From an uncultured archaeon (lineage in GTDB: Archaea > Iainarchaeota > Iainarchaeia > Iainarchaeales > Iainarchaeaceae): DNA of 64,000 nt. The notes beneath the pieces are model-generated. The model saw only the letters and a program-made list of their open reading frames with translations. It was not told the origin of the DNA and ran no database searches. Shown piece by piece: positions 25,658 through 56,972 of the stretch. The translations under genes were made by a program, and so were the position numbers. Numbering within the stretch: the first letter of the stretch is position 1; each line of letters begins with the position of its first letter. Location of the stretch: contig CAZNZM010000006.1 in assembly GCA_964577555.1 (NCBI GenBank), forward strand, positions 4,093 through 68,092. Reading direction: 5' to 3'.

Positions 25658-25658
25658 A

Positions 25659-32056: not shown

Positions 32057-34108
32057 CTAATTTTCTTCAAGAACTTCAAAATATATTTTTTCAAATTCTT
32101 TTCCCACTTCGTTCCATGAAGGAATTCCATTGGTTTTTGGCAATGCACTTTTTTGATTTTTCAAACACCAAATTATTTTATTTGCAATTTCGTTTGGATC
32201 TTCTCTGTTTTTTACTCCAATACATTTATTGTATTTCACATAATCTGCCAAAACTCCTTTTTCAAACAAAACTACTGGGACTTTACAATATATTGCTTGT
32301 GGCACTATGAGCGGATCACCCTCAAAGGAGCTTAACAAAATAAACGCTTTTGATTTTTTTATTAACCTTAAAAGTTTAGCTCTTTCAGAAAAAGGAATTT
32401 GCCCCATAAAATTGATTTTGTCACTTATTCCAAGATTTTTTGCAATTGTTTTCAATTCGTTTTTTTGCGGTCCGTCGCCAATTATGATTAATTTCAACTT
32501 TGGAAGTTTTTCAGATACAACAGCAAAGCCTTTAATAAGCTGTGCAAAGCCTTTGTGTTCAACCAATCTTCCTACAGAAATTATGTAATTTTCTTTTTTG
32601 TTTGCTTTAATAGAATAAATAAATTCCTTATCAACCCCATTTCTCACCAAGGAAAACTTACTTTCTTTGTTAATCCAAAAAGTTCTTTTCAATTTTTCAA
32701 GTTCTGGTTCAGAACTTGCAACAATCTTGTCTATTTTATAACTTAAAATATTCATAAAAATGTCAAATAACCAAGTCATTATTTTTCTGTGAAGTAGCCT
32801 GCTTCCTGTTCTGTTTGCAAATAGAACAAGTTTTTGGTTTTGTTTTTTTCCAAGTATTGCTGCAAGCGTTACCAAATTATTATATCCGTTGCAATGTATA
32901 ATTTTTGCATTTGATTTCCAAACTTCAAAAAATATTTCTGGAGAAAAATAGTAAGCATTGTTAGGCGCAAAAGTTGCAACTTCTTTTATTTTTATACCTT
33001 GAACAAAATACTCTTTAGGGATTGGCGAAGTTGCCAGTATTTCAACTTTTTTTCCTTTTGATTCAAAATATTTTGCAAGCCTTAATGTGAGTTCTTCAAT
33101 TCCAGAAAAAAATAATCTTGGCGTGGCTGTTGAAACAAATAATATGTCAATTTTTTCTTTTTCTGTTTGTTTCACGTAAAATATGGTTATTAAAACCAAA
33201 AAATAGTTTATTACTGTGCTTATTATTGTTGAGCTTACCGCTATTTCTATTGGAATACCTATTAAATAACATAAGTAGGCGTATGCTCCTTCTTTAATTC
33301 CCAAACCATTTGCTGTTAGTGGAATCAATGATATTATTGTTGTTAGAGAAAATATTGTTAAAAGCCCAAGAAAATCCGTTTCAAACCCTAAACCAAAAAA
33401 AATTAACCATTGCCCAAACGTCTGGACAACTATTTTTATTAAAGTTATTAAAAAATTTATTACTACTGCCGTTTTTTCTCTTGAAGCCAAATCAAAAATA
33501 GTAAAAGCAAAACCTTTTCCAAATTCGTTGGTTTTCTTTAGTTTGGAAAATATTTCACTGATTTTTTGATAATATATAAACAATAAAAAACCAAAAAATA
33601 AAATCATCAAAACTGAAATAAAAACAAAAAACACAATAGTTTGGTTAATAATATTCTCCAAAAGAATTAGTATTTTTTCTCTTATTTGTTCATTAAAAAA
33701 AAAGATTCCAAAAAATCCTATTAATATCAAAACTACTAATGAAATCACCTTATCAAAAAATATCACTGCAACACTTTCATTCAATCCTGTTTTTTCCTTT
33801 AAAAAATACGCCAAGCTAAAATCGCCCAACCTTCCAGGCATTATAGAACCTAAAGCCCAACTCTTCAAATACGCTCTTGAAAAATCCTCTTCTGAAATTT
33901 CCAATCTTTTATCAAAAAGAACTCTGATTCCAAGCTCGCTTAAAAAAACACTCAAAACAAAAACAACAAAAACAGGAAGCAAAAACAAAAAATCAAAACC
34001 GCTTAAAGCCCTAAAAATATTTTCAACACCTACAAAATAGTATAAAAACAACAAAACTAAAACGCCTAAAATTATTCTTGCATAATCAAAAAATTTTTTG
34101 ATATTCAT
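32057..34108 (-). CDS. fusion protein: N-terminal UPF0104 flippase-like membrane domain plus C-terminal GT4 glycosyltransferase
   Basis: The N-terminal ~330 aa are polytopic with the UPF0104 pattern. The C-terminus has GT4 motifs (RLVEHKGFAQLIKGF...LIIIGDGP...SSFEGDPLIVPQAI). Confidence 0.75.
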   Translation of the reverse strand: MNIKKFFDYARIILGVLVLLFLYYFVGVENIFRALSGFDFLFLLPVFVVFVLSVFLSELGIRVLFDKRLEISEEDFSRAYLKSWALGSIMPGRLGDFSLAYFLKEKTGLNESVAVIFFDKVISLVVLILIGFFGIFFFNEQIREKILILLENIINQTIVFFVFISVLMILFFGFLLFIYYQKISEIFSKLKKTNEFGKGFAFTIFDLASREKTAVVINFLITLIKIVVQTFGQWLIFFGLGFETDFLGLLTIFSLTTIISLIPLTANGLGIKEGAYAYLCYLIGIPIEIAVSSTIISTVINYFLVLITIFYVKQTEKEKIDILFVSTATPRLFFSGIEELTLRLAKYFESKGKKVEILATSPIPKEYFVQGIKIKEVATFAPNNAYYFSPEIFFEVWKSNAKIIHCNGYNNLVTLAAILGKKQNQKLVLFANRTGSRLLHRKIMTWLFDIFMNILSYKIDKIVASSEPELEKLKRTFWINKESKFSLVRNGVDKEFIYSIKANKKENYIISVGRLVEHKGFAQLIKGFAVVSEKLPKLKLIIIGDGPQKNELKTIAKNLGISDKINFMGQIPFSERAKLLRLIKKSKAFILLSSFEGDPLIVPQAIYCKVPVVLFEKGVLADYVKYNKCIGVKNREDPNEIANKIIWCLKNQKSALPKTNGIPSWNEVGKEFEKIYFEVLEEN

Positions 34109-34121
34109 CCAAAAAACCTTT

Positions 34122-35744
34122 TTATCTTTTTACCTTGTAGATTTTTGTATCCTCGTAAGAATATATTTCTTCCAATACTGATTTTGGTAACGAGTTTCCA
34201 ATCATTTTTTCGTTTTCCCCGAAAAATACATAATCAATCTTGTTTTCAATAAGTATTTTCATTTTATTTTCTTCGCTTGTGTTGTCGCTGAATAATTTAT
34301 TCACATTTGTTTTTTTTTCAACCAAATTTGAAGTTTCGGTCCAATGCCCTAAATATGATTTGTGATGAGTCATATAAGGGATATTGTTTCCTGTTTTATA
34401 AGACGAAATAACGTTTCCTTTTTCCTGTTTTGCAAGAAATTGAATTGCTTTGTAGTCAGATTTTTTCATGTAAGGGCTTGATTGAAAATCCGGGTTTGCT
34501 ACATCTGATATTCTTTTGGCAATAATAAAAGGGGAAGAGAGACAAATAATTATGATTAGTATTGTTGTGAATGCTTTGCTTATATTGTTTTTTTTTCCTA
34601 ACCAAAAAAATAATGGAAATTTTGCCTCGCTGATTTTTTCTTTCAAATAAAATATGCCAAAAGTTGCCGCAATTGCAATTGGCAAGTGCAAACTGAACAT
34701 TAATTTTAATCCTTTGTCAGGATTTATTGCGGCTATGAATGAGCCTAAAAGCCAAGCATAAAAAAAATCTTTTGTAAAACCGTTGATTTTGCTTATTTTT
34801 CTTATTCCAAAAAAAGCCAGAGGAATTAGCAATCCATAGCCAATAAAATAGTAAAATAATGGTTCTGCTCTTTTCCAACTCATATATGCTTCAAAGCTTT
34901 TTGAATACGCATAGTCGTTTAATGCAAATAAAAGATAAACTATTATAAGCCCAGCTGGAAGAATAAAAATAATCATTGTTTTGAAGTATTTCCAAGCTTT
35001 TTGAATGTCAAGTGAATCCATTATTGGGATTATTGGAATCAAAGCAAGGCAAAGAGAAAAAACGGCTATTGAAGCAGGGTGTATAAAAAATATGGCTATA
35101 TATGATATTAATGCGGCAATGAGAAATTTTGCGTTTTTGGTTTCAAAATATTTTTTGAGCAAAATGAAAACAATAATGAAAAGAGAGTATGCAATATAAG
35201 GCAATGGAAAAGCCAAGTGACCGAAAGTGCTGTATCCTAATGAATAATTTATGTCTGTTGAGGCTATTTTTTCAAATATAGGGAAAAATTTTTCTAATAT
35301 GAAGAAAAACCAGCCTATTCCTCCGCCAATTGAACATATCAAAAAAGCTGTTATCCTTTCTTTTTCATTTGTAAAAAAATTTTTGAGAAAAACCCATAAA
35401 GCAAAAAGAAAAATTGATATCACTGCTATTCTTCCGATATTAAAAATTAATGGAATGCTTATTCCTGTAAAATTTGAAATTGTTCCTAATAGTGAAAAAT
35501 ACAAAAAAACATAAACTCCATTTTGTGGCTCGGTTGTGTACCTGTTTTCCATGAATATTTTTGGAGATTCTGCAGATTGTTTTATGTAAGAAGCATACAA
35601 GTGAAAGTCGTCCTGCCAATCAAAGCCAGTATAAATATACCCTGACGGTTCAAAAAAGTATCCTGTAAAAGCAGGCAGGGATATTAGTATAGCCAAAGAA
35701 ATGCAAATAATGATTATGGCTTTGTCAATTTCCTGGATTTTCAT
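34122..35744 (-). CDS. GT-C-fold polytopic membrane protein (AglB/STT3-like paralog without a WWDYG motif)
   Basis: 540 aa with more than 11 TM helices. The first luminal loop FDWQDDFHLYASY resembles the AglB FEFDSYYHGR motif. C-terminal ...EDTKIYKVKR mirrors the AglB C-terminus. Confidence 0.5.
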   Translation of the reverse strand: MKIQEIDKAIIIICISLAILISLPAFTGYFFEPSGYIYTGFDWQDDFHLYASYIKQSAESPKIFMENRYTTEPQNGVYVFLYFSLLGTISNFTGISIPLIFNIGRIAVISIFLFALWVFLKNFFTNEKERITAFLICSIGGGIGWFFFILEKFFPIFEKIASTDINYSLGYSTFGHLAFPLPYIAYSLFIIVFILLKKYFETKNAKFLIAALISYIAIFFIHPASIAVFSLCLALIPIIPIMDSLDIQKAWKYFKTMIIFILPAGLIIVYLLFALNDYAYSKSFEAYMSWKRAEPLFYYFIGYGLLIPLAFFGIRKISKINGFTKDFFYAWLLGSFIAAINPDKGLKLMFSLHLPIAIAATFGIFYLKEKISEAKFPLFFWLGKKNNISKAFTTILIIIICLSSPFIIAKRISDVANPDFQSSPYMKKSDYKAIQFLAKQEKGNVISSYKTGNNIPYMTHHKSYLGHWTETSNLVEKKTNVNKLFSDNTSEENKMKILIENKIDYVFFGENEKMIGNSLPKSVLEEIYSYEDTKIYKVKR

Positions 35745-36242
35745 GTTAAATAATATTTTTCAATACACATTAAAAATACACAGTTGGATTTTTTTTTGAT
35801 AAAATAAAACTTTATTTTTTTGTCTTTGGCTTGGTTTTTCAAGCCGATTTTATTTTTTTTCAATTGAAATTCAATTTTTTTTATTAGCCAAATTTTTGTT
35901 TTTTTTTGTTTTGGTTTTGCGAGCTGTTTTTTTGTCATTTTTTTTTGCGTTTTGTTTTTTTTTTGTTTTGCAAGCCATTTTTTTTAGTCATTTTTTTTTG
36001 AATTATTTTTTTTGTTTTGGTTTTGCGAGCTGTTTTTTTTGTCTTTGGTTTTTTCTTATTTTATTTTTTTAGTTTTGATTTTTTTTGTTTGTTTTTTTGC
36101 AAGTTTATTTTTTTGTCATTTTGGCTTGACTTTTTTCTTTTTTTGCCAACTTGGTTTTTTTTACACGCCTTTTTGTTGTTTTAGCTTTATTAATTTGTTT
36201 TATATTGTTTTTGTCATTGGAATTTTTGTTGTTATGAAAACT
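35745..36242. repeat. T-tract-rich modular intergenic repeat region (copy 6)
   Basis: Two gcgagctgttttttt modules, gcaagccattttttttagtcatttttttttgaattatttttttt (35960-36015) and further T8 / GC-word units, in a divergent promoter region. Confidence 0.65.
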
Positions 36243-36908
36243 TCTCTTATAGTTTTGACTCTTAATGAATTTGAAGGTTTCAAGAAAATAATGCCTAAAG
36301 TTAATAGAAAATGGGTTGATGAGATTATTGTAATAGATGGCGGTTCTACTGATGGGACTCCGGAATTGGCTAAAAAGATGGGTTATAAAGTAATAACTCA
36401 AAGAAATAGGGGTCGGGGAGAAGCATTCAGGCTTGGTTTGGAAAAATCAAAAGGAGATTTGCTTGTTTATTTTAGTCCTGATGGCAATGAAGACCCAAAA
36501 GACATACCAAAGCTTTTAGAAAAAGCCAATGAAGGCTATGACATGGTTATTGCGTCAAGGTTTGGTAATGGCTCAAAAAGTTATGATGCTACTTTTATTA
36601 GGTTAATAGGAAACAAATTTTTTACTTTGTTGATAAATATGCTTTTTGGCTTGCATCTTTCTGATGCAGTTAATGGTTTTAGGGCAATAACCAGAAAAGC
36701 CATGGAGTCTATAAAAACTGACGCTGTTTATTTTGATATTGAAATACAAATGACTATGAGGTGTGCCAGAAAAGGTTACAAGATTTCAGAAATTCCAACG
36801 ATAGAATACCCAAGAGTTTTCGGAAAAGGCAAATTGAGCACTATAAAGGACGGTTTTAGGTATTTGAAATTGATTTTAATTGAATTTTTCAAGGTTGATA
36901 AAAAATGA
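36243..36908 (+). CDS. GT2 glycosyltransferase (Dol-P-sugar synthase-like)
   Basis: The track ORF starts at 36012 inside the Phe-rich T-tract repeat. The real start is likely ATG 36243 (MKTSLIVLTLNEFE...VIDGGSTDGT...). Confidence 0.8.
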   Translation, partial: SLIVLTLNEFEGFKKIMPKVNRKWVDEIIVIDGGSTDGTPELAKKMGYKVITQRNRGRGEAFRLGLEKSKGDLLVYFSPDGNEDPKDIPKLLEKANEGYDMVIASRFGNGSKSYDATFIRLIGNKFFTLLINMLFGLHLSDAVNGFRAITRKAMESIKTDAVYFDIEIQMTMRCARKGYKISEIPTIEYPRVFGKGKLSTIKDGFRYLKLILIEFFKVDKK

Positions 36909-38197
36909 AAAAGTCTGTTTGTATAGTTGGCACTGGCTATGTTGGCTTGACATTGGGTGCAGTATTGGCTGACAATAATTTTGATGTTCATTGTGTAGAA
37001 ATAAATGAATCGGTTGTCAAGTCTCTTAATTCAGGAGAACCTCATTTTCATGAAAACGGACTTAAAGCATTAATGAGGAAAAATCTTGGCAAATCTTTGT
37101 TTTTTTCAACCAAATTTCCAGAAAAATCCTGCGACATATATGTGATTTGTGTAAGCACCCCTGTTGACAAAAACGGCAAGCCAATCTTGGATTATATTGT
37201 TTCTGCTTCGGAAGCTGTTGCAAAAAACATGGCTTATTATAGTTTAGTCGTAATGAGAAGCACAATTCCTGTTGGCACTTCAAGAAATATTGTCAAACCT
37301 ATATTGGATAAAAGCGGTAAAAATTATTTGTTGTCATTTTGTCCAGAACGTACTGTTGAAGGAAACGCTATTAAGGAATTAATGGAGCTTCCGCAAATAA
37401 TAGGCGGTTTGAATGAAGCAAGTGTCAGAGAATCTGTTAATTTTTTCAAAAAAATAGCTCCAACAACAATAGAAGTTTCTTCTCTTGAAGCGGCTGAAAT
37501 GATAAAGCTTTTGAATAATTCTTATCGTGACATGGTGTTTGCTTACGCTAATGAAGTGGCTCTGCTATGCGAAAAAATTTCAATAGACGCCAATGAAGTT
37601 ATTAAAGCCGCAAATTTAGGGTATTCCAGATCCAACATTCCAGTGCCAGGGTTTGTTGGAGGCGCATGTTTGGAAAAAGACCCTTATATACTTTCAAATG
37701 TCGCTGAATCAGTTGGCTTTAATCCAAAGCTTGTAATGGCTGCAAGATCAATAAACGAATTTTTGCCAATTCATGTAGCCAAAAGAATAAATAATATGCT
37801 GAATTCTATTGGAAAAAATAAATCTGCAAAAATATTTGTATTAGGTTTTGGATTTAAAGGGAAACCAGAAACAGACGATGTGAGAGGATCGCCAACCATA
37901 ACTTTGGTTTCAGCATTGAAAAACTTTGGTTACTCAAATATTTTCGGTTTTGATCCTGTAGTAAAACCAGAAGTTATAAAATCTCTCAAAGCTTTTCCAG
38001 TAAATGTTGAAGAAGGTTTCAATGGTGCTGATTGTATAATATTTGCCAATAATCACAATTTTTTTAATTCGCTTGACATTGAGTTTTTGATAGGCAAAAT
38101 GAATAAGCCAGCAGTATTCTTTGATTGTTGGCAAATATTTCCGCCAAAAATTATTATTCGCAGTAATATAGTTTATGGAGGCATAGGTTTTGAGTAA
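36905..38197 (+). CDS. nucleotide-sugar dehydrogenase (UDP-N-acetyl-hexosamine / UDP-glucose dehydrogenase family)
   Basis: VCIVGTGYVGLTLGAVLADNNFDVHCVEIN Rossmann motif. The catalytic region GGACLEKD is present. 430 aa. Confidence 0.8.
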   Translation: MKKSVCIVGTGYVGLTLGAVLADNNFDVHCVEINESVVKSLNSGEPHFHENGLKALMRKNLGKSLFFSTKFPEKSCDIYVICVSTPVDKNGKPILDYIVSASEAVAKNMAYYSLVVMRSTIPVGTSRNIVKPILDKSGKNYLLSFCPERTVEGNAIKELMELPQIIGGLNEASVRESVNFFKKIAPTTIEVSSLEAAEMIKLLNNSYRDMVFAYANEVALLCEKISIDANEVIKAANLGYSRSNIPVPGFVGGACLEKDPYILSNVAESVGFNPKLVMAARSINEFLPIHVAKRINNMLNSIGKNKSAKIFVLGFGFKGKPETDDVRGSPTITLVSALKNFGYSNIFGFDPVVKPEVIKSLKAFPVNVEEGFNGADCIIFANNHNFFNSLDIEFLIGKMNKPAVFFDCWQIFPPKIIIRSNIVYGGIGFE

Positions 38198-39179
38198 AAT
38201 TCTTGTTACTGGTGGAGCTGGTTTCATAGGCTCTAATCTTGCAAAAAAGCTTTTAGAATTGAAAAACGAAGTGCATATATGCGACAATTTTTCAAGGGCA
38301 AAAAAAGACGAATTTACAAGACAAATATTTGAACACCGTAATGCATCTCTCATAGAAGCCGATTTGTCAAATCCTGACAAATTTTCCAATTTTGAAAAAT
38401 ACGATTACGTTTATCATCTTGCAGCAATTAACGGCACAAAATATTTCTATGAAAAACCTGATGTTGTTTTAAAGACTAATTTATTGATGTGCATAAATGT
38501 CCTGGATTGGTTCTCAAAAACAAAAAAAGGCAAAATTCTTTTCTCTTCGTCTTCCGAAACTTATGCAGGCACAATTTCAAGTTTTGGGGGAAAAATACCG
38601 ACTCCAGAAAACATTGAGCTTTGCATAAACGACGTTTACAATCCAAGATGGTCCTATGGCGGAAGCAAGATTGCAGGAGAATTATTGTTCATAAATTATG
38701 CAAGAATCCATAAATTTCCAATGACAATCGTAAGATACCATAATATATATGGCCCAAGAATGGGCTTTGAACATGTAATACCAAACTTTGTTGAAAGGGC
38801 TTATAAAAAAGAAAATCCGTTCAAAGTTTTCGGGCTTAATAATACTAGGGCTTTTTGCTATATTTCTGATGCTGTTGAAGCAACTCGTCTTGCTATGGAA
38901 TCAAAAAACACCGACATGCAAATAATAAATATAGGGAACAGTTTTGAAGAAATATTAATTGGAGAACTTGCAAAAAAAATCACGGCTCTTGCAAAATACA
39001 ATCCGAAAATAATTGAGGTTAAATCGCCAGAGGGAAGCGTGGAAAGGCGTTGTCCAGATACTAAAAAAATGCAAAATCTTATTGGTTTTATCCCGAAAAT
39101 AAAGTTGGATGAAGGGCTAGAAAAAACTTTCAAATGGTATTACGATTATTATGATAATTGCAAAGGTGAAGTCAAGTGA
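38190..39179 (+). CDS. extended-SDR nucleotide-sugar 4,6-dehydratase-like enzyme
   Basis: ILVTGGAGFIGSNL. The SSSETYAG (S-E-Y) and YGGSK triad is typical of 4,6-dehydratases and unlike the SSATVYG of 4-epimerases. Confidence 0.65.
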   Translation: MSKILVTGGAGFIGSNLAKKLLELKNEVHICDNFSRAKKDEFTRQIFEHRNASLIEADLSNPDKFSNFEKYDYVYHLAAINGTKYFYEKPDVVLKTNLLMCINVLDWFSKTKKGKILFSSSSETYAGTISSFGGKIPTPENIELCINDVYNPRWSYGGSKIAGELLFINYARIHKFPMTIVRYHNIYGPRMGFEHVIPNFVERAYKKENPFKVFGLNNTRAFCYISDAVEATRLAMESKNTDMQIINIGNSFEEILIGELAKKITALAKYNPKIIEVKSPEGSVERRCPDTKKMQNLIGFIPKIKLDEGLEKTFKWYYDYYDNCKGEVK

Positions 39180-40441
39180 ATATTAGCGATGAAGAAAAAA
39201 ACTTTCTTAAAAAAATAATTTCCAAAAATCTGGCAAAAAAAACCAAATTTATTCCAGGAAAAAGCCAAGTAAAAGTTGGTTGGCCCATTTTTGGCGAAGA
39301 AGAAATAATTTCGGTTTTTTCATCCATGCTGGAATTGCGCATATCCCAAGGTGAAAAAGTAAAAGAATTTGAATCAATGTATGCTTCAGAAATAGGAGTA
39401 AAAAACGCTATTGCCGTGAATTCAGGTTCTTCGGCAAACCTTCTCGCTATTGATGCTTTACTTCAAAAAGGCATGGTAGAAAAAGGCTCGGAAGTAATCG
39501 TTCCTGCAGCCACTTTTGCAACTGTTGCATCGCCAATTATACAGTTAGGGCTTGTCCCTGTTTTTGTTGATGTTGAATTGGATTCTTATAATATTTCGCC
39601 AGAAGAAATAGAATCTGCAATCAACAAAAAAACCTCAATGGTAATGGCGGTTCATTCACTTGGCAACCCTGCAAAAATGGATAAAATAACAAAAATAGCG
39701 AAAAACAATTCCGTTATTCTTTTTGAAGATTGTTGCGAAAGCCACCATGCTTCAATTTCAGGCAAAATAGTTGGGAGTTTTGGAGATATTTCAACATTAA
39801 GTTTTTTTGTAGCTCACAACATAACCACTGGAGAAGGCGGAATGATTTTTTCCAACGATTCCGAGTTAGCGGAAATTTGTAGGTCAATCAGGGAATTTGG
39901 AAGAAGGCTCAACCAATCGCCAAGGTTTCAATATGTTAATGACAAGCTTGGCGAATATGATGTCAGATACATTTTTGACAGGCTTGGTTACAATTTTCGC
40001 ATGACTGATATTGAAGCTTCAATAGGCATAGAACAATTAAAAAAACTCCCGAAATTCAACAAAGCTAGGATAGAAAACGCAAAATTCTTTTACAATTCGC
40101 TTAGCAACTTGGATTCTTTGCAATTGCCCACAATAGAAAAAAATTCTGTTCACACGTTTTATGGATTTCCAATAATGGTGAAAGAAAAAGCAAATTATTC
40201 ACGCAGGCAACTTGTCGATTTTCTTGAAAAATCAAACATAGAAACCAGGCCATTTATGGGAGGAAACCTCGCAGTACAACCAGCTTTTGTTGGAAAGAAA
40301 ATCAAAGTACATGGCGACTTGAAAAATTCCAAATTGATTTCCAAAAACATGTTTTTCATAGGATGCCACCCAGGAATAGGTGAAGAAGAAAGAGAATACA
40401 TAACTGACAAAATAAAAGAATTTGACTCTAAAAACAAGTAA
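39176..40441 (+). CDS. DegT/DnrJ family PLP/PMP-dependent sugar 3-dehydratase (ColD/E1-like; active-site His replaces Lys)
   Basis: The fold-type I aminotransferase motif reads SFFVAHNITTGEGG where aminotransferases have SFHxxKN. This K-to-H substitution is the hallmark of the 3-dehydratases ColD and E1. Confidence 0.6.
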   Translation: MNISDEEKNFLKKIISKNLAKKTKFIPGKSQVKVGWPIFGEEEIISVFSSMLELRISQGEKVKEFESMYASEIGVKNAIAVNSGSSANLLAIDALLQKGMVEKGSEVIVPAATFATVASPIIQLGLVPVFVDVELDSYNISPEEIESAINKKTSMVMAVHSLGNPAKMDKITKIAKNNSVILFEDCCESHHASISGKIVGSFGDISTLSFFVAHNITTGEGGMIFSNDSELAEICRSIREFGRRLNQSPRFQYVNDKLGEYDVRYIFDRLGYNFRMTDIEASIGIEQLKKLPKFNKARIENAKFFYNSLSNLDSLQLPTIEKNSVHTFYGFPIMVKEKANYSRRQLVDFLEKSNIETRPFMGGNLAVQPAFVGKKIKVHGDLKNSKLISKNMFFIGCHPGIGEEEREYITDKIKEFDSKNK

Positions 40442-40446
40442 CTATT

Positions 40447-41415
40447 TTACTCGTGCTCCAACGCCCACTTTATTGTTTCTTTCAATCCATAATCTATGTT
40501 TGTCTTTGCTTTGAAATTTATCAATCTTTCAGCTTTTTCAGTGTTGCACAATCTTTTCAAGCTTCCTGCGTTTGATTTTTCGTCAAATTCAAAAACAGGG
40601 TTTTTCTCCATTATTTTGGCAATTTTTTTTGCAAGATCAATTATTTTAATGCTTTCCTTGGAACCCAAATTTATTGGATCCGGCTTCGGATAAAGTTCAG
40701 CAATTTTTGCAATGCCCTCAACAAGGTCTTTTACATAAATAAAACTTCTCTCTTGTTGTCCGTTTCCAAAAATCTTGACAGTTTTGTTTTCTTTTATCCT
40801 GTGTATCAAACTCGGTATTACGTGTGATTTTTTAGGATCAAAAACATCTCTTGGCCCATACACGTTGAAAGGCCTGGCAATGCCTATTTTCAATCCAAAT
40901 TCATCAGAATAAGCCTTTGATAAAAGCTCATCAAACCTTTTGCTCCAAGCATAGCCAAACTTGGCTTTGTCAGGTTCGCCAGTGAAACCCAAATTTTCAG
41001 TTAAAGGAAATTCATAATTGTCAGGATAAACACACGCTGAACTAACGATAACAGCTCTTTCAACATCACGTTTTCTTAAAGCCTCAAGAACATTTGAAGT
41101 TATTCTTGTATTAGTCATAAGCATGGTGGCAGGATGTTCAAGATTGTATTGTACTCCGCCAACTATTGCAGCAAGATGAAACACAACATCAGAATTATTC
41201 ACAGCATTAATTGCTGATTTTTCATCCAAAAGATCCGCTTCAACCAACTCTATCTTTCCTTCAGACAAAATATTTTTATCCAAATTGATTTTTTTTGTAT
41301 TCTTGGCAGTTACTTTGACTTTTGCGCCTTTATTCAAAATATGTTCTGCCAAATGGCTTCCTATAAAACCAGCTCCCCCTGTAATAAGCACTTTTTTGTT
41401 TTTCCAGAACTCCAT
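40447..41415 (-). CDS. extended-SDR GDP-L-fucose-synthase-like 3,5-epimerase/4-reductase
   Basis: VLITGGAGFIGSHL. The SSACVYP and YAWSK motifs match the Fcl/GMER/ColC type. Confidence 0.65.
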   Translation of the reverse strand: MEFWKNKKVLITGGAGFIGSHLAEHILNKGAKVKVTAKNTKKINLDKNILSEGKIELVEADLLDEKSAINAVNNSDVVFHLAAIVGGVQYNLEHPATMLMTNTRITSNVLEALRKRDVERAVIVSSACVYPDNYEFPLTENLGFTGEPDKAKFGYAWSKRFDELLSKAYSDEFGLKIGIARPFNVYGPRDVFDPKKSHVIPSLIHRIKENKTVKIFGNGQQERSFIYVKDLVEGIAKIAELYPKPDPINLGSKESIKIIDLAKKIAKIMEKNPVFEFDEKSNAGSLKRLCNTEKAERLINFKAKTNIDYGLKETIKWALEHE

Positions 41416-41495
41416 GTTAGCAATATTATCTGGCCAAAAATAAAAACATTAGCATATTGCAAAATTCTGTTGCTTTTTAATAATAAGCTTATAAA

Positions 41496-42668
41496 TTGGA
41501 TAAGAATTATTTGTTTTTAATGGAGCCTTTAGTCACTTTAGTTGGAACCATGCCGCCAATAAAAGGCATAAGCGATTATTGCATAGAACAAATAAAATCT
41601 CTTTCAAATTTTGTTTCCCTTGAATTTTACGGTTTCAAAAGTATTTATCCAGAATATTTTTATCCAGGCGGCAAAACCAAAGAATATGACAAAACCTTTT
41701 CATTGGAAAAACCGAAAAATGTTGAAATAAAAAATTTTTTAGCATGGTACAACCCTATTTCATGGATTTTTGTTGGTTTAACATCAAAAGGCAAAATATT
41801 GCATTTTCATTGGTGGACTTTTTGGTTGTTTCCAGTTTTCTTTACAATATCAGCAATTTCCAAGTTGAGGGGCAAAAAAATCGTATGCACAGTCCACAAT
41901 GTTGTGGGACACGAATCAGGATTGATTGACAAATTATTTTCAATGATAATTTATTTAATTCCAGACAAAATAATAGTTCACACCAAAGCCAATCAAAAAC
42001 AACTTGAAAACACTTTCCATGTTGGCAATAAAAAAATCAATGTTATCCCCCATGGCATATACGAGTTTTATCGTGATGCCGAAATGACAAAATCAAAGGC
42101 AAGAAAAATGCTTGGCATTCCAAAAAAATCTAAAGTAATTTTGATGTTCGGCAACCTCAGGCCTTATAAAGGAATTGATGACCTTATTTTAGCTTTTAAA
42201 AAGGCAAGAAAAATTGTCCCAAATATTTTTTTAGTTATTGCAGGAAAACCGTGGACAAAGCAAATAAACGATTATATTATTCAAGAACTTAGCGATTGCT
42301 CTTCCTGTCTTCTAAAGTTGGACTATGTCCCATCTTCGGAAATAAAAAAATATTTTTTTGCATCAGACGTAGTTGTTCTTCCTTACAAGGATTTTGCCGC
42401 ACAAAGCGGACCAGGAAACATAGCTTTAGCCTTTCAAAAACCCATTATAGTTTCTGATACCGGCGGACTTGTAGAACTCGTGCTCGACAAAAGAGCAGTT
42501 TTTTCCAGTGGAAATTCCAATGACTTGGCTAATAAAATTTCAAGCATTATTTCAGACGAAAAACTCCTTAAAAAACTAGAAAAAGACTCTGCATTGCTAA
42601 GTGAAAAATATTCTTGGACATCAATTGCAAAGCTTACCTTGAAGGTTTATAATGAATTGGTTGAATAA
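41496..42668 (+). CDS. GT4 (group 1) glycosyltransferase
   Basis: Two-Rossmann GT-B layout. C-terminal domain ...LVIAGKPW...VVVLPY...E... 390 aa. Confidence 0.65.
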   Translation: MDKNYLFLMEPLVTLVGTMPPIKGISDYCIEQIKSLSNFVSLEFYGFKSIYPEYFYPGGKTKEYDKTFSLEKPKNVEIKNFLAWYNPISWIFVGLTSKGKILHFHWWTFWLFPVFFTISAISKLRGKKIVCTVHNVVGHESGLIDKLFSMIIYLIPDKIIVHTKANQKQLENTFHVGNKKINVIPHGIYEFYRDAEMTKSKARKMLGIPKKSKVILMFGNLRPYKGIDDLILAFKKARKIVPNIFLVIAGKPWTKQINDYIIQELSDCSSCLLKLDYVPSSEIKKYFFASDVVVLPYKDFAAQSGPGNIALAFQKPIIVSDTGGLVELVLDKRAVFSSGNSNDLANKISSIISDEKLLKKLEKDSALLSEKYSWTSIAKLTLKVYNELVE

Positions 42669-42676
42669 ATTTTTTT

Positions 42677-43705
42677 ATGGGTTTTTTAATTCATTCTAGG
42701 GCGCCTGTACGAATCAGTTTTGCAGGCGGCGGAACCGATGTATCGCCATATCCTGAAGAAAGAGGCGGTTGCGTACTAAGTGCAACCATAAACAAGTATT
42801 CATTTACTTCGCTTCGCTTCACAAATTCAAAAAAAATAAGCCTTGCTGAAACCAATAATAATTCCCTGATGCTTGAATCAATAGAAGATGCAGTCCTTGA
42901 CGGAAATTTTGACCTTGCAAAAACAGTCATAATGGAAATGAATCCAAAAACAGGTTTGGAATTGTTTTTCAGAAACGATGTTCCGCCTCGCAGCGGCCTT
43001 GGATCTTCGGCAGCAGCTTTCGTTTCTATAATAGGCGCATTCAACCTTGCTTTCGGCAAAAAACTTTCAAAACACGAAATAGCCCAACTAGCTTTTGAAA
43101 TAGAAAGAAACAGGCTTGGCGTGAAAGGCGGCAAACAAGATCAATTTGCGTCATCATATGGCGGCCTCAACTTTATCGAATTTATAGGAAAAAATGTTAA
43201 GGTTTCAAGCATGAATATTTCAAAATCAACATTATTAGAGCTTGAAAAAAATCTTTTGCTGGTTTTTGTTGGCGAAAGAAAAATGAACGGAACCGACATA
43301 ATATCTGACCAAGTGAATTCTTTTGTTTCAGGAAATAAACAAGTTTCGGATGCTTTGGATTCTGCAAAAAGCATTGCCATTGATATGAAAAACGCCCTCA
43401 AAAAAGGCGATTTAGAACAATTTGGAAAACTATTGGACAAAGGCTGGGTTGAAAAGAAAAAATACAGCAAAAACATTTCAAATCCATTTATTGACAAAAT
43501 ATACTCAACTGCAATCAGCGCAGGTGCAATAGGCGGCAAGTTGACAGGCGCAGGCGGAGGCGGTTATATGGTGTTTTATTGTTATCCGGACAAAGAAATT
43601 AATGTTAAAGACAAGCTTGTTGAAATAGGCGTTAATCCAATTAATTTTTCATTTGACTTTGAAGGAGTACAAGCTTGGAAGATAAAGGTAGATAAAAATG
43701 ATTAA
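42677..43705 (+). CDS. hddA: GHMP kinase, D-glycero-D-manno-heptose 7-phosphate kinase-like
   Basis: RAPVRISFAGGGTDVSPYPEERGGCVLSATINKY and PPRSGLGSSAAAFVSIIGA are GHMP motifs and match the HddA family closely. Confidence 0.75.
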   Translation: MGFLIHSRAPVRISFAGGGTDVSPYPEERGGCVLSATINKYSFTSLRFTNSKKISLAETNNNSLMLESIEDAVLDGNFDLAKTVIMEMNPKTGLELFFRNDVPPRSGLGSSAAAFVSIIGAFNLAFGKKLSKHEIAQLAFEIERNRLGVKGGKQDQFASSYGGLNFIEFIGKNVKVSSMNISKSTLLELEKNLLLVFVGERKMNGTDIISDQVNSFVSGNKQVSDALDSAKSIAIDMKNALKKGDLEQFGKLLDKGWVEKKKYSKNISNPFIDKIYSTAISAGAIGGKLTGAGGGGYMVFYCYPDKEINVKDKLVEIGVNPINFSFDFEGVQAWKIKVDKND

Positions 43706-44285
43706 TTCTGACAAAGCCATGAAAATAATAGAAAACAATTTTTCCGAACACCAAAAAGTATTGGCCGATTCACTTAATTTATCGCCAATAATAGTTAAAA
43801 CAGCCCAAAAAATATTGGATTGCATTAAAAATGGAGGAAAAATTTTGATTTGCGGCAACGGAGGAAGCGCTGCAGACTCTAACCATCTTGCCGCAGAATT
43901 CATTAACAAGTATTTGATAAACAGGTTGCCTCTTCCAGCAATTTCGCTTACATCAAATCAATCAAACCTGACCTCAATAGGAAACGACTATTCTTTTGAC
44001 TTGGTTTTCAGCAAACAGGTTGATGCACTTGGAAAATCAGGAGACATACTTATCGCGATCAGCACTTCTGGTTTGTCAAAAAATATTTTAGAAGCAATAA
44101 AATCAGCAAAGAAAAAATCAATGTTCTCTATTATTTTCACAGGAAATAAAACAACAGAAGCTTCAAAAATAAGCGATTTGGCAATACATGTGCCTTCCCA
44201 ATCCACGCCAAGAATACAGGAAATTCATCTTTTGATTTACCATTGCATTTGTGAAATAGTTGAGAGGGAATTGTTTGAAAAATAA
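43698..44285 (+). CDS. gmhA: phosphoheptose isomerase (SIS domain)
   Basis: KILICGNGGSAADSNHLAAEF...SFD...ISTSG are SIS/GmhA signatures. Overlaps hddA by 8 nt. Confidence 0.8.
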   Translation: MINSDKAMKIIENNFSEHQKVLADSLNLSPIIVKTAQKILDCIKNGGKILICGNGGSAADSNHLAAEFINKYLINRLPLPAISLTSNQSNLTSIGNDYSFDLVFSKQVDALGKSGDILIAISTSGLSKNILEAIKSAKKKSMFSIIFTGNKTTEASKISDLAIHVPSQSTPRIQEIHLLIYHCICEIVERELFEK

Positions 44286-44829
44286 AGCCATATTTTTGGA
44301 CAGAGATGGAGTAATAATCAAGGATGCAGGGCATTTGAACAAAAAATCTCAAGTGAGGCTTATAAGAGGAGTTTCCAAAGCCATAAAGTTGCTCAACAAA
44401 CATTATCTTGTAATAGTAATTTCAAACCAATCGGTTGTAGCAAGAGGCATGGCAACAATCAGCGAAGTTCAAGAAATAAACCAATACATTTTGGGTTTAT
44501 TATCCAAAAAAGGTGCAAAAATAGATGCTGTTTATTTTTGCCCGCATCACCCTGATTTTACAGGCAAGTGCAATTGCCGAAAGCCGGAAACAGGTTTATT
44601 CAAGCAAGCTGAAAAAGATTTCAAAATATCAATGGATGGTAGTTATATGATTGGCGACAAGCTAATAGACATAGAGGCTGGAAAAAAAGCAGGTTGTAAA
44701 ACAATTTTAGTTAATAATACACTTGGCAACACTGAAAACACTGAAAATAATATTAATATTCTTCAAAAACCGGATTTTGAATGCGCCAATCTTCTAGATG
44801 CTGTCAAAATAATATTGTCCAATAATTAG
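44260..44829 (+). CDS. gmhB: D,D-heptose 1,7-bisphosphate phosphatase (HAD-IIIA)
   Basis: AIFLDRDGVII is HAD motif I. The CxHxxxxxC Zn-binding element (CPHHPDFTGKCNC) is typical of GmhB. Overlaps gmhA. Confidence 0.75.
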   Translation: MRGNCLKNKAIFLDRDGVIIKDAGHLNKKSQVRLIRGVSKAIKLLNKHYLVIVISNQSVVARGMATISEVQEINQYILGLLSKKGAKIDAVYFCPHHPDFTGKCNCRKPETGLFKQAEKDFKISMDGSYMIGDKLIDIEAGKKAGCKTILVNNTLGNTENTENNINILQKPDFECANLLDAVKIILSNN

Positions 44830-55328: not shown

Positions 55329-55385
55329 AAATAATAACGATTGTTGTTAATTAGTGTTTTGGAACACCGATATTTTTATTGCAAT

Positions 55386-56909: not shown

Positions 56910-56972
56910 ATTTAATTATTATCACGTGTTAATTCCAATTATTTTTCAGTTTAAAAATCCTTTTTGGTACAA

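What the first reader, a model, noticed from the sequence alone, without database searches (positions are those of the whole stretch)
38190..44829. GDP-heptose operon next to a colitose-type 3,6-dideoxy module: possible GDP-3,6-dideoxyheptose (or colitose) in an archaeal glycan
hddA-gmhA-gmhB (42677-44829) encode the kinase, isomerase and phosphatase of the GDP-D-glycero-alpha-D-manno-heptose route. Candidate HddC-type guanylyltransferases lie at 23409-24131 and 25659-26402. Directly upstream are a 4,6-dehydratase-type SDR (SSSETY…YGGSK), a DegT-family protein whose catalytic Lys is replaced by His (SFFVAHNITTGEGG), as in the 3-dehydratases ColD and E1, and a convergently oriented Fcl/ColC-like epimerase-reductase (SSACVYP…YAWSK). 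That trio is the GMD-ColD-ColC logic of GDP-colitose. Placed next to a heptose-activating operon, it suggests a 3,6-dideoxy-heptose of the kind so far characterised only in a few bacterial capsules. Neither heptoses nor 3,6-dideoxy sugars are standard components of described archaeal N-glycans.
Basis: partly seen in the sequence, partly recalled or inferred. Interest (0 to 1): 0.65.

Follow-up and report, generated by a model that had tools for sequence, protein, structure and literature searches.

The report
Archaeal 3-deoxy-sugar module beside heptose operon
The genes are real, but they form two separate sugar pathways in a DPANN-type archaeal glycosylation island. One is an ordinary GDP-heptose operon; the other is a widespread, uncharacterised four-enzyme module that most likely makes a 3-deoxy sugar from a sugar acid, probably a 3-deoxy-pentose and not a 3,6-dideoxy-heptose.

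Summary
The DegT-family protein (39176-40441) carries His at the Schiff-base position, as in E1 and ColD. It lacks E1's Fe-S cysteines, so it should use ColD-type cofactor chemistry. It is only 35-37% identical to either enzyme and forms a third clade. hddA, gmhA and gmhB are confirmed.

The proposed link between the two gene sets fails.

SDR1 is not GMD-like. Its nearest characterised relatives all act on UDP-glucuronate: human UXS, the Pcryo_0617 decarboxylase and a UDP-GlcA 4-epimerase.

- In 43 non-redundant loci of the dehydratase clade, the dehydrogenase is nearby in 30 and SDR1 in 30. Heptose genes appear only in one close relative, and nucleotidyltransferases never.
- In an independent sample of SDR1 loci, 24 of 29 have the dehydrogenase. 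The third partner varies: His-DegT, Lys-DegT or none.
- One genome fuses SDR1 to the dehydratase.

Best reading: NDP-hexose → uronate → 4-keto-pentose → 3-deoxy-4-keto-pentose → 3-deoxy-pentose. This follows Arn/CalS8-CalS9 logic with a C3-deoxygenation step. The heptose operon is a neighbour, not the substrate supplier.

The parts
36235..36908 (+). GT2 polyprenyl-phosphate sugar synthase-like glycosyltransferase (AglJ/DPM1/ArnC type), first gene of module A. It was called as ORF 36012-36908, but the first ~75 codons are a Phe-rich read-through of a T-rich repeat.
   Evidence: AglJ 130 bits, Dol-P-hexose transferase 90 bits and ArnC-type 47 bits, with matches starting at residue ~75. ATG at 36235. 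Orthologs at 57-72% identity stand in the same position in L001, L103 and L127.
36905..38197 (+). NDP-sugar 6-dehydrogenase (DH). It overlaps the GT2 stop by 4 nt.
   Evidence: TIGR03026 358.7 bits, above the 189.8 cut-off. All three UDPG_MGDP_dh Pfam domains are present. The catalytic-Cys motif GGACLEKD is read directly. The best PDB hit is CalS8, a TDP-glucose dehydrogenase, at 216.7 bits.
38190..39179 (+). SDR1, an extended SDR predicted to be an NDP-hexuronate C4-oxidase/decarboxylase (UXS/ArnA/CalS9-like). It overlaps the DH stop by 8 nt.
   Evidence: Best PDB matches are human UXS1 (120 bits single sequence, 163.9 with the family profile) and the Pcryo_0617 oxidoreductase/decarboxylase 8vr2. 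Residues S121-S122-E123, R153, Y156, K160, N185 and R287 match the UXS signature residues listed in PMC12820599. There is no GMD match. A DH is present in 24 of 29 independent family loci.
39176..40441 (+). DegT-family PMP-dependent sugar 3-dehydratase with His214 in place of the Schiff-base Lys and without E1's [2Fe-2S] cysteines. It overlaps the SDR1 stop by 4 nt.
   Evidence: RfbH model 384.7 bits, below the 423 cut-off. PDB hits: E1 274 bits, ColD 222 bits. His alignment and absence of the DCYCAPGCDNTC motif. Fused to SDR1 in L005.
40447..41415 (-). SDR2, a GFS/ColC-like SDR predicted to be the C4-ketoreductase that completes module A. It is convergent on the dehydratase gene, with a 5-nt spacer.
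   Evidence: Fcl model 163.6 bits, below the 500 cut-off. PDB hits: 8vr2 132 bits and GDP-fucose synthases ~129 bits. The motif is S-A-C, like Fcl's S-S-C, with Arg where Fcl has His179. Homologs at 39-46% identity sit directly beside His-type DegT genes in L021, L053, L054, L058, L059, L063, L071, L078 and L080.
41496..42668 (+). GT4 glycosyltransferase, first gene of module B (the heptose operon). It is divergent from SDR2 across an 80-bp gap.
   Evidence: Glycos_transf_1 81 bits and Glyco_transf_4. The ortholog in L001 (56% identity) holds the same position.
42677..43705 (+). [quoted passage not shown]
   Evidence: NF049969 231.4 bits, against 110 for mevalonate kinase. PDB 3k85, 4usk (WcbL) and 4n3o give 184-221 bits.
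43698..44285 (+). GmhA, sedoheptulose-7-phosphate isomerase.
   Evidence: NF010546 213.9 bits and TIGR00441 196 bits, both top hits just below their cut-offs.
44260..44829 (+). GmhB, heptose-1,7-bisphosphate phosphatase (HAD-IIIA).
   Evidence: NF006506 154.1 bits (cut-off 178) and TIGR00213 128 bits.
23409..24131 (-). Sugar-1-P nucleotidyltransferase of the GDP-sugar type. It is the only plausible HddC candidate in the window, and the assignment is ambiguous.
   Evidence: Man-1-P guanylyltransferase model 174.5 bits; HddC model 135 bits, below the 300 cut-off. PDB hits: GDP-mannose pyrophosphorylases 122-132 bits and Yersinia HddC (5xhw/6jq8) 105 bits.
32057..35744 (-). Two membrane genes divergent from module A: a 540-aa polytopic protein (34122-35744) and a flippase-like LPG_synthase_TM domain fused to a GT4 (32057-34108). 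They are candidates for handling a lipid-linked sugar. This role is inferred only.
   Evidence: About 10 TM-like segments and a 53%-identical ortholog in the same position in L001. LPG_synthase_TM 119.9 bits plus Glycos_transf_1 108.7 bits. Related loci carry PMT_2 GT-C genes beside the module: L103 and L003.

Best explanation
The region holds two independent nucleotide-sugar modules inside an archaeal (DPANN-like) N-glycosylation island.

Module A runs from 36235 to 41415. Its steps are proposed as follows.
1. A dedicated NDP-sugar 6-dehydrogenase oxidises a common NDP-hexose (UDP- or dTDP-glucose, possibly an N-acetylhexosamine) to the uronic acid.
2. SDR1, a UXS/ArnA/CalS9-like enzyme, oxidises C4. 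The resulting beta-keto acid loses CO2, giving an NDP-4-keto-pentose.
3. The His-type DegT enzyme forms a PMP ketimine at C4 and expels the C3 hydroxyl.
4. Because the enzyme has no Fe-S cluster, the product is released ColD-style, by hydrolysis of the enamine. PMP is regenerated from glutamate.
5. SDR2 reduces C4, yielding an NDP-3-deoxy-pentose.
6. The GT2 enzyme probably loads this sugar onto dolichyl phosphate, for transfer outside the membrane.

Module B runs from 41496 to 44829. [quoted passage not shown] The heptose is probably activated by the guanylyltransferase-like enzyme at 23409-24131 and used by the adjacent GT4.

Shown by sequence and context: the gene identities, the His, the absent Cys motif, the operon structure and the conserved context. 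Inferred: the substrate, the decarboxylation, the product and the lipid carrier.
For: Operon structure: GT2, DH, SDR1 and DegT overlap by 4-8 nt. The heptose genes form a separate unit beyond the convergent SDR2.

Context of the dehydratase clade (at least 41% identity; 43 non-redundant loci): DH in 30, SDR1 ortholog in 30, both in 25, two or more heptose genes in 1, a nucleotidyltransferase in 0. In other His-DegT clades a DH appears in 3 of 38.

Independent sample of the SDR1 family (metagenome scan): 24 of 29 loci with enough flank have a DH, and in 17 it is directly adjacent. The third partner is a His-DegT in 6, a Lys-DegT in 8 and absent in 12. Halocella L085 and L086 show DH, SDR1 and a Lys-type DegT together. 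A DegT needs a keto sugar, and SDR1 is the only enzyme in these units that could supply one.

Fusion: in L005, SDR1 and the His-DegT are one 799-aa protein, with the DH upstream and an SDR2-like gene downstream.

Family placement of SDR1: UXS1 163.9 bits, the Pcryo_0617 decarboxylase 157.9, UDP-GlcA 4-epimerase 147.5, RmlB at most 128.6, and GMD absent from the top 60. By Foldseek, the UXS entry 2b69 ranks 1 and 8vr2 ranks 2-5. SDR1 carries the UXS signature residues (PMC12820599, PMC10338323).

The best solved relative of the DH is CalS8, the dehydrogenase that opens the calicheamicin aminopentose route.

The His and the missing Fe-S motif. Mechanism of the known enzymes: PMC8987622, PMC10440746.

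Arn-like companions: the GT2 recurs in the same position (L127, L103, L001). PMT_2 GT-C genes and LPG_synthase_TM domains lie beside the module in L103 and L003.
Against: - No enzyme was assayed. SDR subclasses cannot be separated reliably by sequence, as PMC10338323 itself states. SDR1's best NCBIfam hits are LegB (130 bits) and RmlB (127 bits), both 4,6-dehydratases, although far below cut-off. The UXS signature residues (T/S-x-E, Arg, Asn) are shared in part with GMD and RmlB.
- Heptose genes lie beside a DH-SDR1 pair in a second, unrelated locus (L113). There, however, a true GMD is also present.
- The window has a true RmlA/RmlB pair 17 kb away that could supply dTDP-4-keto-6-deoxyglucose.
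- A 3-deoxy-pentose has not been reported in a glycan in the searched literature. That makes the prediction novel, and also unprecedented.
- A 4-keto-uronate might be passed on without decarboxylation.
Confidence: 0.55

Rival explanations
1. [quoted passage not shown]
For: The heptose genes are physically adjacent, both in the window and in its 67-69%-identical relative L001/L039. SDR2's best family is GDP-fucose synthase. The dehydratase has ColD-like cofactor logic. Such a pathway exists in C. jejuni (PMC10440746). L113 shows that the gene combination can occur.
Against: No GMD/DmhA-family enzyme is present in the window. The dehydratase is 35% identical to ColD, whereas the known heptose 3-dehydratases are 62-67% identical to ColD (PMC10440746). 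Heptose genes accompany this dehydratase clade in 1 of 43 loci, against 30 of 43 for the DH. The heptose genes are a separate transcription unit. This model does not explain the translational coupling of DH and SDR1 or the SDR1-dehydratase fusion that has the DH upstream.
Confidence: 0.07
2. A classical 3,6-dideoxy-hexose route. SDR1 is a divergent LegB/RmlB-like 4,6-dehydratase, or the RmlA/RmlB pair at 56973-58668 supplies dTDP-4-keto-6-deoxyglucose. The His-DegT then removes the 3-OH and SDR2 reduces C4. The neighbouring dehydrogenase makes a different residue (a uronic acid) of the same glycan.
For: SDR1's top NCBIfam hits are LegB (130 bits) and RmlB (127 bits). A true RmlB (446.9 bits, cut-off 365.1) and an RmlA-like gene exist in the window. 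All characterised His-type DegT enzymes act on 4-keto-6-deoxy sugars (PMC8987622). SDR1 homologs in L085 and L086 lie in nonulosonic-acid-type clusters.
Against: It leaves unexplained why the DH is the near-constant neighbour of SDR1, often directly adjacent to it (24 of 29 loci; 30 of 43). No nucleotidyltransferase travels with the module (0 of 43). With the family profile, all three top characterised relatives use UDP-glucuronate.
Confidence: 0.2
3. The carboxylate is kept. The module makes an NDP-3-deoxy-hexuronic acid, either because SDR1 releases the 4-keto-uronate without decarboxylation or because the dehydrogenase acts last on a 3-deoxy-hexose.
For: The same DH-SDR1-DegT-SDR context as the best explanation. 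SDR1 is nearly as close to a UDP-GlcA 4-epimerase, which holds a 4-keto-uronate without losing CO2, as it is to UXS: 147.5 against 163.9 bits.
Against: SDR1 has the invariant Glu123 of the UXS T/S-S-E triad. From my own recollection, not checked here, the 4-epimerase lacks this Glu. A 4-keto-uronate is a beta-keto acid that is prone to decarboxylate. The gene order (DH first) fits the DH acting first.
Confidence: 0.1
4. The His-DegT is not a dehydratase here. It could be a slow aminotransferase, an epimerase-like enzyme or an inactive relic.
For: SpnQ and the E1 H220K mutant show transaminase side activities (PMC8987622). No biochemical data exist for this clade.
Against: The His and the surrounding motif are conserved in 119 of the 120 best homologs and in every member of the 43-locus clade. 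The gene is intact, translationally coupled to SDR1 and, in one genome, fused to it. Every characterised His-type member of the family is a 3-dehydratase.
Confidence: 0.05

Closest known systems
ColD (GDP-4-keto-6-deoxy-D-mannose 3-dehydratase) and the C. jejuni HS:5/HS:11 GDP-heptose C3-dehydratases
   Same: DegT fold, His at the Schiff-base position and no Fe-S cluster. The expected mechanism is therefore the same: PMP ketimine, loss of the C3-OH, enamine hydrolysis and regeneration of PMP by glutamate (PMC10440746, PMC8987622).
   Different: Only 35% identical, and about 30 residues longer at the N-terminus. It is partnered with a dehydrogenase and a UXS-like SDR instead of GMD/DmhA. There is no evidence for a GDP-linked substrate.
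E1 (RfbH/DdhC/AscC, CDP-6-deoxy-L-threo-D-glycero-4-hexulose 3-dehydrase) and SpnQ
   Same: E1 is the best-scoring characterised relative (274 bits; RfbH model 384.7 bits). Length and N-terminal region are the same, and the His is conserved.
   Different: It lacks the [2Fe-2S] motif C-x57-C-x-C-x7-C. The region DCYCAPGCDNTC is replaced by a Cys-free RRLNQSPRFQ. No E3-type reductase and no CDP-glucose pathway genes are in the window. The score is below the RfbH cut-off. One clade member (L021) still carries an E1-like Cys motif.
Ugd-ArnA-ArnB-ArnC-ArnT (L-Ara4N pathway) and CalS8-CalS9-CalS13 (calicheamicin aminopentose); also Pcryo_0617 with its neighbouring aminotransferases
   Same: Dehydrogenase, then SDR oxidative decarboxylase, then a DegT-family enzyme acting on the 4-keto-pentose. 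A GT2 polyprenyl-P sugar synthase sits in the operon, and PMT_2/ArnT-type GT-C genes and flippase-like genes lie nearby in relatives.
   Different: The DegT partner carries His rather than Lys, so C3-deoxygenation replaces C4-amination. A separate reductase (SDR2) is needed. There is no formyltransferase domain. SDR1 is only about 29% identical to UXS and 8vr2.
[quoted passage not shown]
   Same: GmhA, the GHMP-type kinase HddA and GmhB are all present as an overlapping operon, each with the right best family hit.
   Different: HddC is not in the operon, and the only candidate lies 19 kb away and is ambiguous. All scores are below the equivalog cut-offs. The host is archaeal.

Membership tests
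PMP-dependent NDP-sugar 3-dehydratases (E1/ColD/SpnQ class) | DegT/aspartate-aminotransferase fold with His replacing the Schiff-base Lys | tested here: met
   PF01041 330 bits. His214 aligns with E1 His220 and ColD His188. In the same column, paralogous DegT proteins carry Lys.
E1 (RfbH/DdhC) subfamily | [2Fe-2S] cysteine motif (C193, C251, C253, C261) and a dedicated E3 reductase | tested here: not met
   The region aligned to DCYCAPGCDNTC holds no Cys. No FNR/E3-like ORF of 150 aa or more was found in the window.
E1 (RfbH/DdhC) subfamily | Score above the curated NCBIfam RfbH cut-off | tested here: not met
   384.7 bits against a cut-off of 423.
ColD / GDP-heptose C3-dehydratase subfamily | Close sequence relationship (the characterised members are 62-67% identical to each other) and partnership with a GMD-family 4,6-dehydratase | tested here: not met
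   35% identity to ColD. No GMD-family protein in the window: at most 54.5 bits against a cut-off of 415.
ColD / GDP-heptose C3-dehydratase subfamily | Cluster-free, glutamate-recycled mechanism | not testable with these tools
   The absence of the Cys motif is compatible with it. Activity would need an assay.
NDP-glucuronate decarboxylases (UXS/ArnA/CalS9/RsU4kpxs) | Extended SDR with the T/S-S-E triad, R-x-x-Y-x-x-x-K, and the Asn and C-terminal Arg signature residues | tested here: met
   S121-S122-E123, R153, Y156, K160, N185 and R287 are invariant or nearly so in the family and align with hUXS T118, S119, E120, R144, Y147, K151, N176 and R277 (PMC12820599). These residues are not exclusive to decarboxylases.
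NDP-glucuronate decarboxylases (UXS/ArnA/CalS9/RsU4kpxs) | Closest characterised relatives are decarboxylases | tested here: met
   UXS1 and Pcryo_0617 rank first by single sequence, by family profile and by Foldseek. The margins over epimerases and RmlB are modest.
NDP-glucuronate decarboxylases (UXS/ArnA/CalS9/RsU4kpxs) | Genomic coupling to an NDP-sugar 6-dehydrogenase that supplies the uronate | tested here: met
   An 8-nt overlap with the DH in the window. DH present in 24 of 29 and in 30 of 43 related loci.
NDP-glucuronate decarboxylases (UXS/ArnA/CalS9/RsU4kpxs) | Oxidative decarboxylation with release of the 4-keto-pentose | not testable with these tools
   Requires an enzyme assay.
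[quoted passage not shown] | GmhA isomerase, GHMP-type HddA kinase and GmhB phosphatase | tested here: met
   Each has the right best family hit (213.9, 231.4 and 154.1 bits), and HddA's top PDB hits are heptose kinases. All three are below the equivalog cut-offs.
[quoted passage not shown] | HddC guanylyltransferase | tested here: inconclusive
   23409-24131 scores 135 bits against a cut-off of 300 for HddC, 174.5 bits for Man-1-P guanylyltransferase and 105 bits to Yersinia HddC. 25659-26402 is AglF-like and paired with an AglM-like DH.
GDP-L-fucose synthase / ColC epimerase-reductases (SDR2) | Ser-x-Cys and Tyr-x-x-x-Lys, plus the His179 base needed for epimerisation (His179 from established knowledge of E. 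coli Fcl) | tested here: inconclusive
   S-A-C and YAWSK are present, but Arg stands at the His179 position. The Fcl model gives 163.6 bits against a cut-off of 500. This fits a reductase without epimerase activity.

The most novel reading that the evidence does not exclude
The four genes DH, SDR1, His-DegT and a second SDR form a widespread, uncharacterised cassette. It occurs in DPANN and Methanocellales archaea, in Patescibacteria/CPR, and in Neptuniibacter, SAR86, Pelagibacteraceae and Prochlorococcus. The proposal is that the cassette makes an NDP-3-deoxy-pentose (or a 2-acetamido-2,3-dideoxy-pentose), a class of sugar not yet described in any glycan. It would do so by grafting ColD-type C3-deoxygenation onto the Arn/CalS8-CalS9 decarboxylation route. 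In this archaeon the sugar would be delivered through a dolichyl-phosphate carrier to a surface glycan.
Probability: 0.45. Interest if true: 0.75.

Novelty: new variant of a known kind. Interest (0 to 1): 0.6.

Why it matters
If the best reading holds, it defines a new branch of deoxysugar biosynthesis: C3-deoxygenation of a uronate-derived 4-keto-pentose. It also predicts a sugar that has not been seen in glycans.

The cassette is common in the organisms whose cell surfaces are least known, namely DPANN archaea, CPR bacteria and streamlined marine bacteria. It would therefore add a letter to the 'glycan alphabet' and give a concrete mass to look for in S-layer, pilin and LPS glycoproteomics.

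It also splits the His-type DegT dehydratases into context-defined clades. This should stop automatic annotation of this clade as 'CDP-6-deoxy-D-xylo-4-hexulose-3-dehydrase', as JGI names it here.

Separately, the intact HddA-GmhA-GmhB operon points to a heptose in a DPANN surface glycan. The only archaeal precedent found is Thermoplasma acidophilum.

Tried and rejected
- Single-sequence family assignment of SDR1. NCBIfam gave LegB, RmlB and GalE at similar low scores and was not decisive. It was replaced by a family-profile search, a fold search and context statistics.
- Signature residues of decarboxylases. All are present, but they are shared in part with GMD and RmlB (R at -3 of the catalytic Tyr; NDP-binding Arg). 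I treat them as compatible, not diagnostic.
- L085 and L086 as clean 'DH-SDR1-aminotransferase' examples. Both lie in nonulosonic-acid or WbpA/B/D/E-like clusters, so the DH there could serve another pathway. I therefore ran the independent 80-locus sample instead.
- L113 first looked like a second heptose plus DH-SDR1 link. Scanning showed it carries a true GMD and an Fcl-like SDR, and that its dehydratase belongs to a different clade.
- Testing whether the 540-, 513- and 534-aa membrane proteins are ArnT/PMT-like GT-C enzymes. There was no significant Pfam or BLAST link, only TM counts and a weak DUF6541 hit. This is left as inference.
- Literature searches for PDB codes 8VR2/8VR3/8VR5 and for Pcryo_0617 found nothing in the held library. 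The function of 8vr2 is taken from its PDB title.
- No tRNA gene was found in the window.

Full report
**What is in the sequence.** The stretch 36.0-44.8 kb carries nine tightly packed genes.

On the plus strand:
- a GT2 glycosyltransferase, called as 36012-36908, although its real start is probably the ATG at 36235;
- an NDP-sugar dehydrogenase (36905-38197);
- an extended SDR, here SDR1 (38190-39179);
- a DegT-family protein (39176-40441).

Each of these overlaps the next by 4-8 nt. A second SDR, SDR2 (40447-41415), is convergent on the minus strand, 5 nt from the DegT stop. After an 80-bp divergent gap come a GT4 glycosyltransferase, hddA, gmhA and gmhB (41496-44829), again overlapping or nearly so.

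**Setting.** The window is a large glycosylation island. It contains:
- AglB/STT3 (61872-63881) and a split Alg13/Alg14-like pair;
- AglJ-like GT2 genes and two flippase-like LPG_synthase_TM genes;
- an AglM/AglF-like UDP-glucose dehydrogenase and pyrophosphorylase pair;
- an RmlA-like gene and a true RmlB.

Archaeal markers include a geranylgeranyl reductase, a PAC2-type proteasome chaperone and a FlaI/CpaF-like ATPase. The named homologs of that ATPase are from Diapherotrites, Iainarchaeum and Micrarchaeota, so the source is a DPANN-type archaeon. The proteins occur verbatim on a public 69.5-kb contig.

**The DegT protein is a His-type 3-dehydratase of a third clade.** Its best solved relatives are E1 (274 bits) and ColD (222 bits). 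His214 aligns with E1 His220, the residue changed to Lys in PDB entry 3bb8, and with ColD His188. In a 109-sequence alignment the column separates cleanly: His in all dehydratase-like proteins and Lys in all paralogous aminotransferases. Of the 120 best database homologs, 119 carry the motif SFFVAHN[IM]TTGEGG or a minor variant of it.

E1's [2Fe-2S] motif (DCYCAPGCDNTC) is replaced by a Cys-free stretch in the window protein and in nearly all clade members. One ortholog, in L021, still has a CTCPICLVTQGKPC motif. No E3-type reductase is encoded in the window. By the published distinction between E1/SpnQ and ColD (PMC8987622), the enzyme should therefore work ColD-style: PMP ketimine, loss of the C3-OH, enamine hydrolysis and recycling by glutamate.

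It is nevertheless only 35% identical to ColD and 37% to E1. The GDP-heptose C3-dehydratases characterised in C. jejuni are 62-67% identical to ColD (PMC10440746). It also scores below the RfbH cut-off (384.7 against 423).

**The heptose genes are genuine.** HddA scores 231 bits on the heptose-7-P kinase model, against 110 for mevalonate kinase. Its best solved relatives are the heptose kinases 3k85, WcbL and 4n3o. GmhA and GmhB have the right best hits.

The guanylyltransferase remains open. 23409-24131 is of the GDP-sugar type but cannot be told apart from ManC. 25659-26402 is AglF-like. The review PMC11407970 records a heptose in the N-glycan of Thermoplasma acidophilum, so a heptose in an archaeal N-glycan has a precedent.

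**SDR1 is not a GMD-type 4,6-dehydratase.** It has no significant match to the GMD model, and none of the window's five SDRs exceeds 54.5 bits on it.

Ranking of its solved relatives:
- Single sequence: human UXS1 120 bits, then 8vr2 at 117 bits.
- Family profile (A3): UXS1 163.9, 8vr2 157.9, B. cereus UDP-GlcA 4-epimerase 147.5, RmlB at most 128.6, ArnA about 100.
- Foldseek on an AlphaFold model (pLDDT 84): the UXS entry 2b69 first, then 8vr2. The PDB title of 8vr2 reads 'Pcryo_0617 oxidoreductase/decarboxylase'.

The three nearest characterised relatives thus all act on UDP-glucuronate. SDR1 carries the UXS/ArnA signature residues (S121-S122-E123, R153, Y156, K160, N185, R287) (PMC12820599, PMC10338323). 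These residues are not exclusive to decarboxylases, and the EvdS6 paper warns that SDR subclasses are hard to separate by sequence.

**Context decides.** I fetched 80 genome loci encoding relatives of the dehydratase and scored their neighbours.

| His-DegT group | Loci | DH within 6 kb | SDR1 ortholog | Both | ≥2 heptose genes | Nucleotidyltransferase |
|---|---|---|---|---|---|---|
| Window clade (≥41% identity, non-redundant) | 43 | 30 | 30 | 25 | 1 (L001) | 0 |
| Other His-DegT clades | 38 | 3 | 2 | 2 | 0 | 6 |

L001 is the 67-69%-identical relative of the window. Most of the negative loci in the window clade are short contigs.

The window-clade cassette occurs in Methanocellales, Woese- and Pacearchaeota, many Patescibacteria, Neptuniibacter, SAR86, Pelagibacteraceae and Prochlorococcus. 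It usually takes the form DH-SDR1-(SDR)-DegT or DH-SDR1-DegT-SDR, with overlapping genes.

In L005, SDR1 and the dehydratase are fused into one 799-aa protein. The DH overlaps its start, and an SDR2-like gene follows it. L127 repeats the window's GT2-DH-SDR1-DegT operon at 51-65% identity and has no heptose genes.

**An independent sample of the SDR1 family.** I ran a metagenome scan that was not conditioned on the dehydratase. Of 29 loci with at least 1.4 kb on both sides, 24 have a dehydrogenase, and in 17 it is directly adjacent. The third partner varies: His-DegT in 6, ordinary Lys-DegT in 8, unclear in 3 and none in 12. In the last group an SDR2-like reductase often follows directly.

Halocella sp. 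SP3-1 and another genome show DH, SDR1 and a Lys-type DegT together. L103 shows GT2-DH-SDR1 followed by a PMT_2-family GT-C.

A DegT enzyme needs a keto sugar, and SDR1 is the only enzyme in these units that can provide one. Its constant companion is an enzyme that makes uronic acids, and a 4-keto-uronate is a beta-keto acid. This is the Ugd-ArnA-ArnB and CalS8-CalS9-CalS13 logic. CalS8 is in fact the best solved relative of the window's dehydrogenase (216.7 bits).

**Proposed mechanism for module A.**
1. NDP-hexose → NDP-hexuronate (DH; the catalytic-Cys motif GGACLEKD is present).
2. → NDP-4-keto-pentose + CO2 (SDR1).
3. → NDP-3-deoxy-4-keto-pentose + NH4+ (His-DegT, with PMP regenerated from glutamate).
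4. → NDP-3-deoxy-pentose (SDR2).
5. → Dol-P-sugar (GT2), then transfer outside the membrane by one of the neighbouring polytopic membrane proteins.

On SDR2: it has the Fcl-type Ser-x-Cys but Arg at the position of Fcl His179. This fits a reductase that needs no epimerase function, because C3 and C5 of the substrate are both CH2. Its 39-46% homologs sit beside His-type DegT genes in nine other loci.

Steps 1-4 are inferred from families and context. Step 5 is weaker: it rests on GT2 family hits, recurrence of the GT2 gene and Arn-like companions in related loci. The nucleotide (UDP or dTDP) and the hexose (Glc or an N-acetylhexosamine) are unknown.

- It needs a GDP-heptose or GDP-mannose 4,6-dehydratase, which in every known case is a GMD homolog. 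None is present.
- It leaves the dehydrogenase unexplained.
- It predicts that heptose genes travel with this dehydratase clade, and they do not.

L113 is instructive. It is a high-GC metagenome contig with HddC-like, HddA, GmhA, GmhB, DH, SDR1, a true GMD (511 bits against a cut-off of 415), an Fcl-like SDR (292 bits) and a His-DegT, all on one strand. That dehydratase groups with the Nitrosopumilaceae, Natronorubrum and Nitrospira clade (47-52% identity) and not with the window clade (40-42%).

**Remaining rivals.**
- A classical 3,6-dideoxy-hexose route, with SDR1 as a divergent LegB/RmlB-like dehydratase or with the window's own RmlA/RmlB supplying the substrate (confidence 0.2).
- Retention of the carboxylate, giving a 3-deoxy-hexuronate (0.1).
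- A non-dehydratase role for the DegT (0.05).

**Novelty.** No paper in the searched library describes a 3-deoxy-pentose in a glycan, or a dehydrogenase-decarboxylase-3-dehydratase route. The parts are all known enzyme kinds, but the combination and the predicted product are not. I rate it a new variant of a known kind, moderately to highly interesting and directly testable with four recombinant enzymes.

Noticed in passing
window 35900-36144 (within intergenic 35745-36234): A T-rich tandem repeat of about 54 nt fills the divergent region upstream of the GT2-DH-SDR1-DegT operon (about 3.4 copies, 76% matches; unit roughly TTTTGTTTTGGTTTTGCGAGCTGTTTTTTTGTC...). It produces a spurious Phe-rich N-terminal extension of ORF 36012-36908. 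Its function is unknown; a promoter or regulatory array is possible.
   Followed up: partly
window 54747-59657 (minus strand): A separate 6-deoxyhexose-type cluster: a methyltransferase, an HpnJ-like B12-binding radical SAM protein (441.7 bits, below the 577.6 cut-off), an RmlA-like nucleotidyltransferase, a true RmlB (446.9 bits, above the 365.1 cut-off) and a further SDR. It suggests a C-methylated or otherwise modified deoxyhexose.
   Followed up: partly
window 60771-63881: A split Alg13-like (GT28 C-terminal domain) and Alg14-like pair on the minus strand, next to an AglB/STT3 oligosaccharyltransferase on the plus strand. The island is therefore tied to N-glycosylation.
   Followed up: partly
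window 24374-26402: An AglM-like UDP-glucose 6-dehydrogenase (TuaD model 561 bits, AglM model 410 bits) is followed directly by an AglF-like nucleotidyltransferase. This pair would supply UDP-GlcA.
   Followed up: yes
L005 8849-11248 (CAMAVR010000006.1, MAG labelled Nannocystis exedens): A natural fusion of the SDR1 ortholog (residues 31-348, 47% identity) and the His-type dehydratase (residues 385-792, 56% identity) into one 799-aa protein. It is flanked by the dehydrogenase and an SDR2-like gene.
   Followed up: yes
L113 1060-12486 (metagenome contig Ga0209979_1000651): A one-strand cluster: HddC-like, HddA, GmhA, GmhB, DH, SDR1, a true GMD, an Fcl-like SDR, a His-DegT, a Polysacc_synt flippase and a GT2. 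It is a good candidate for a real GDP-3,6-dideoxyheptose or colitose cluster in an unidentified high-GC organism.
   Followed up: partly
L021 9992-11281 (MAG archaeon JBDRAZ010000103.1): An ortholog of the window dehydratase (48% identity, also next to DH and SDR1) keeps a four-Cys motif (CTCPICLVTQGKPC) at the position of E1's Fe-S motif. The clade may therefore contain both cluster-bearing and cluster-free members. The same locus has a second His-type DegT beside a 46%-identical SDR2 homolog.
   Followed up: partly
L103 4019-8688; L003 11039-15188: Relatives place PMT_2/ArnT-family GT-C genes and a GT2::LPG_synthase_TM fusion next to the DH-SDR1 pair. This gives an Arn-like set: lipid-P sugar synthase, flippase-like domain and GT-C.
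   Followed up: partly
window 5994-10517: A 1507-aa ORF with no Pfam or NCBIfam match. The neighbouring region 2001-6000 has a very strong AT skew (-0.41 to -0.49). It may be a surface or S-layer-type protein, but this was not examined.
   Followed up: no
window 14290-17308 (minus strand): A FlaI/CpaF-like secretion ATPase (217.6 bits to the archaellum motor ATPase model, below cut-off) with a weak FlaJ-like membrane partner. This looks like a type IV pilus or archaellum-like system next to the glycosylation island.
   Followed up: partly
L046 (Natronorubrum sulfidifaciens JCM 14089, NZ_AOHX01000047.1): A cultured haloarchaeon carries a related four-gene set: a His-DegT (38% identity), an SDR1-like gene (39%), a further SDR and a DH (35%). 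It is a possible experimental host for identifying the sugar.
   Followed up: no
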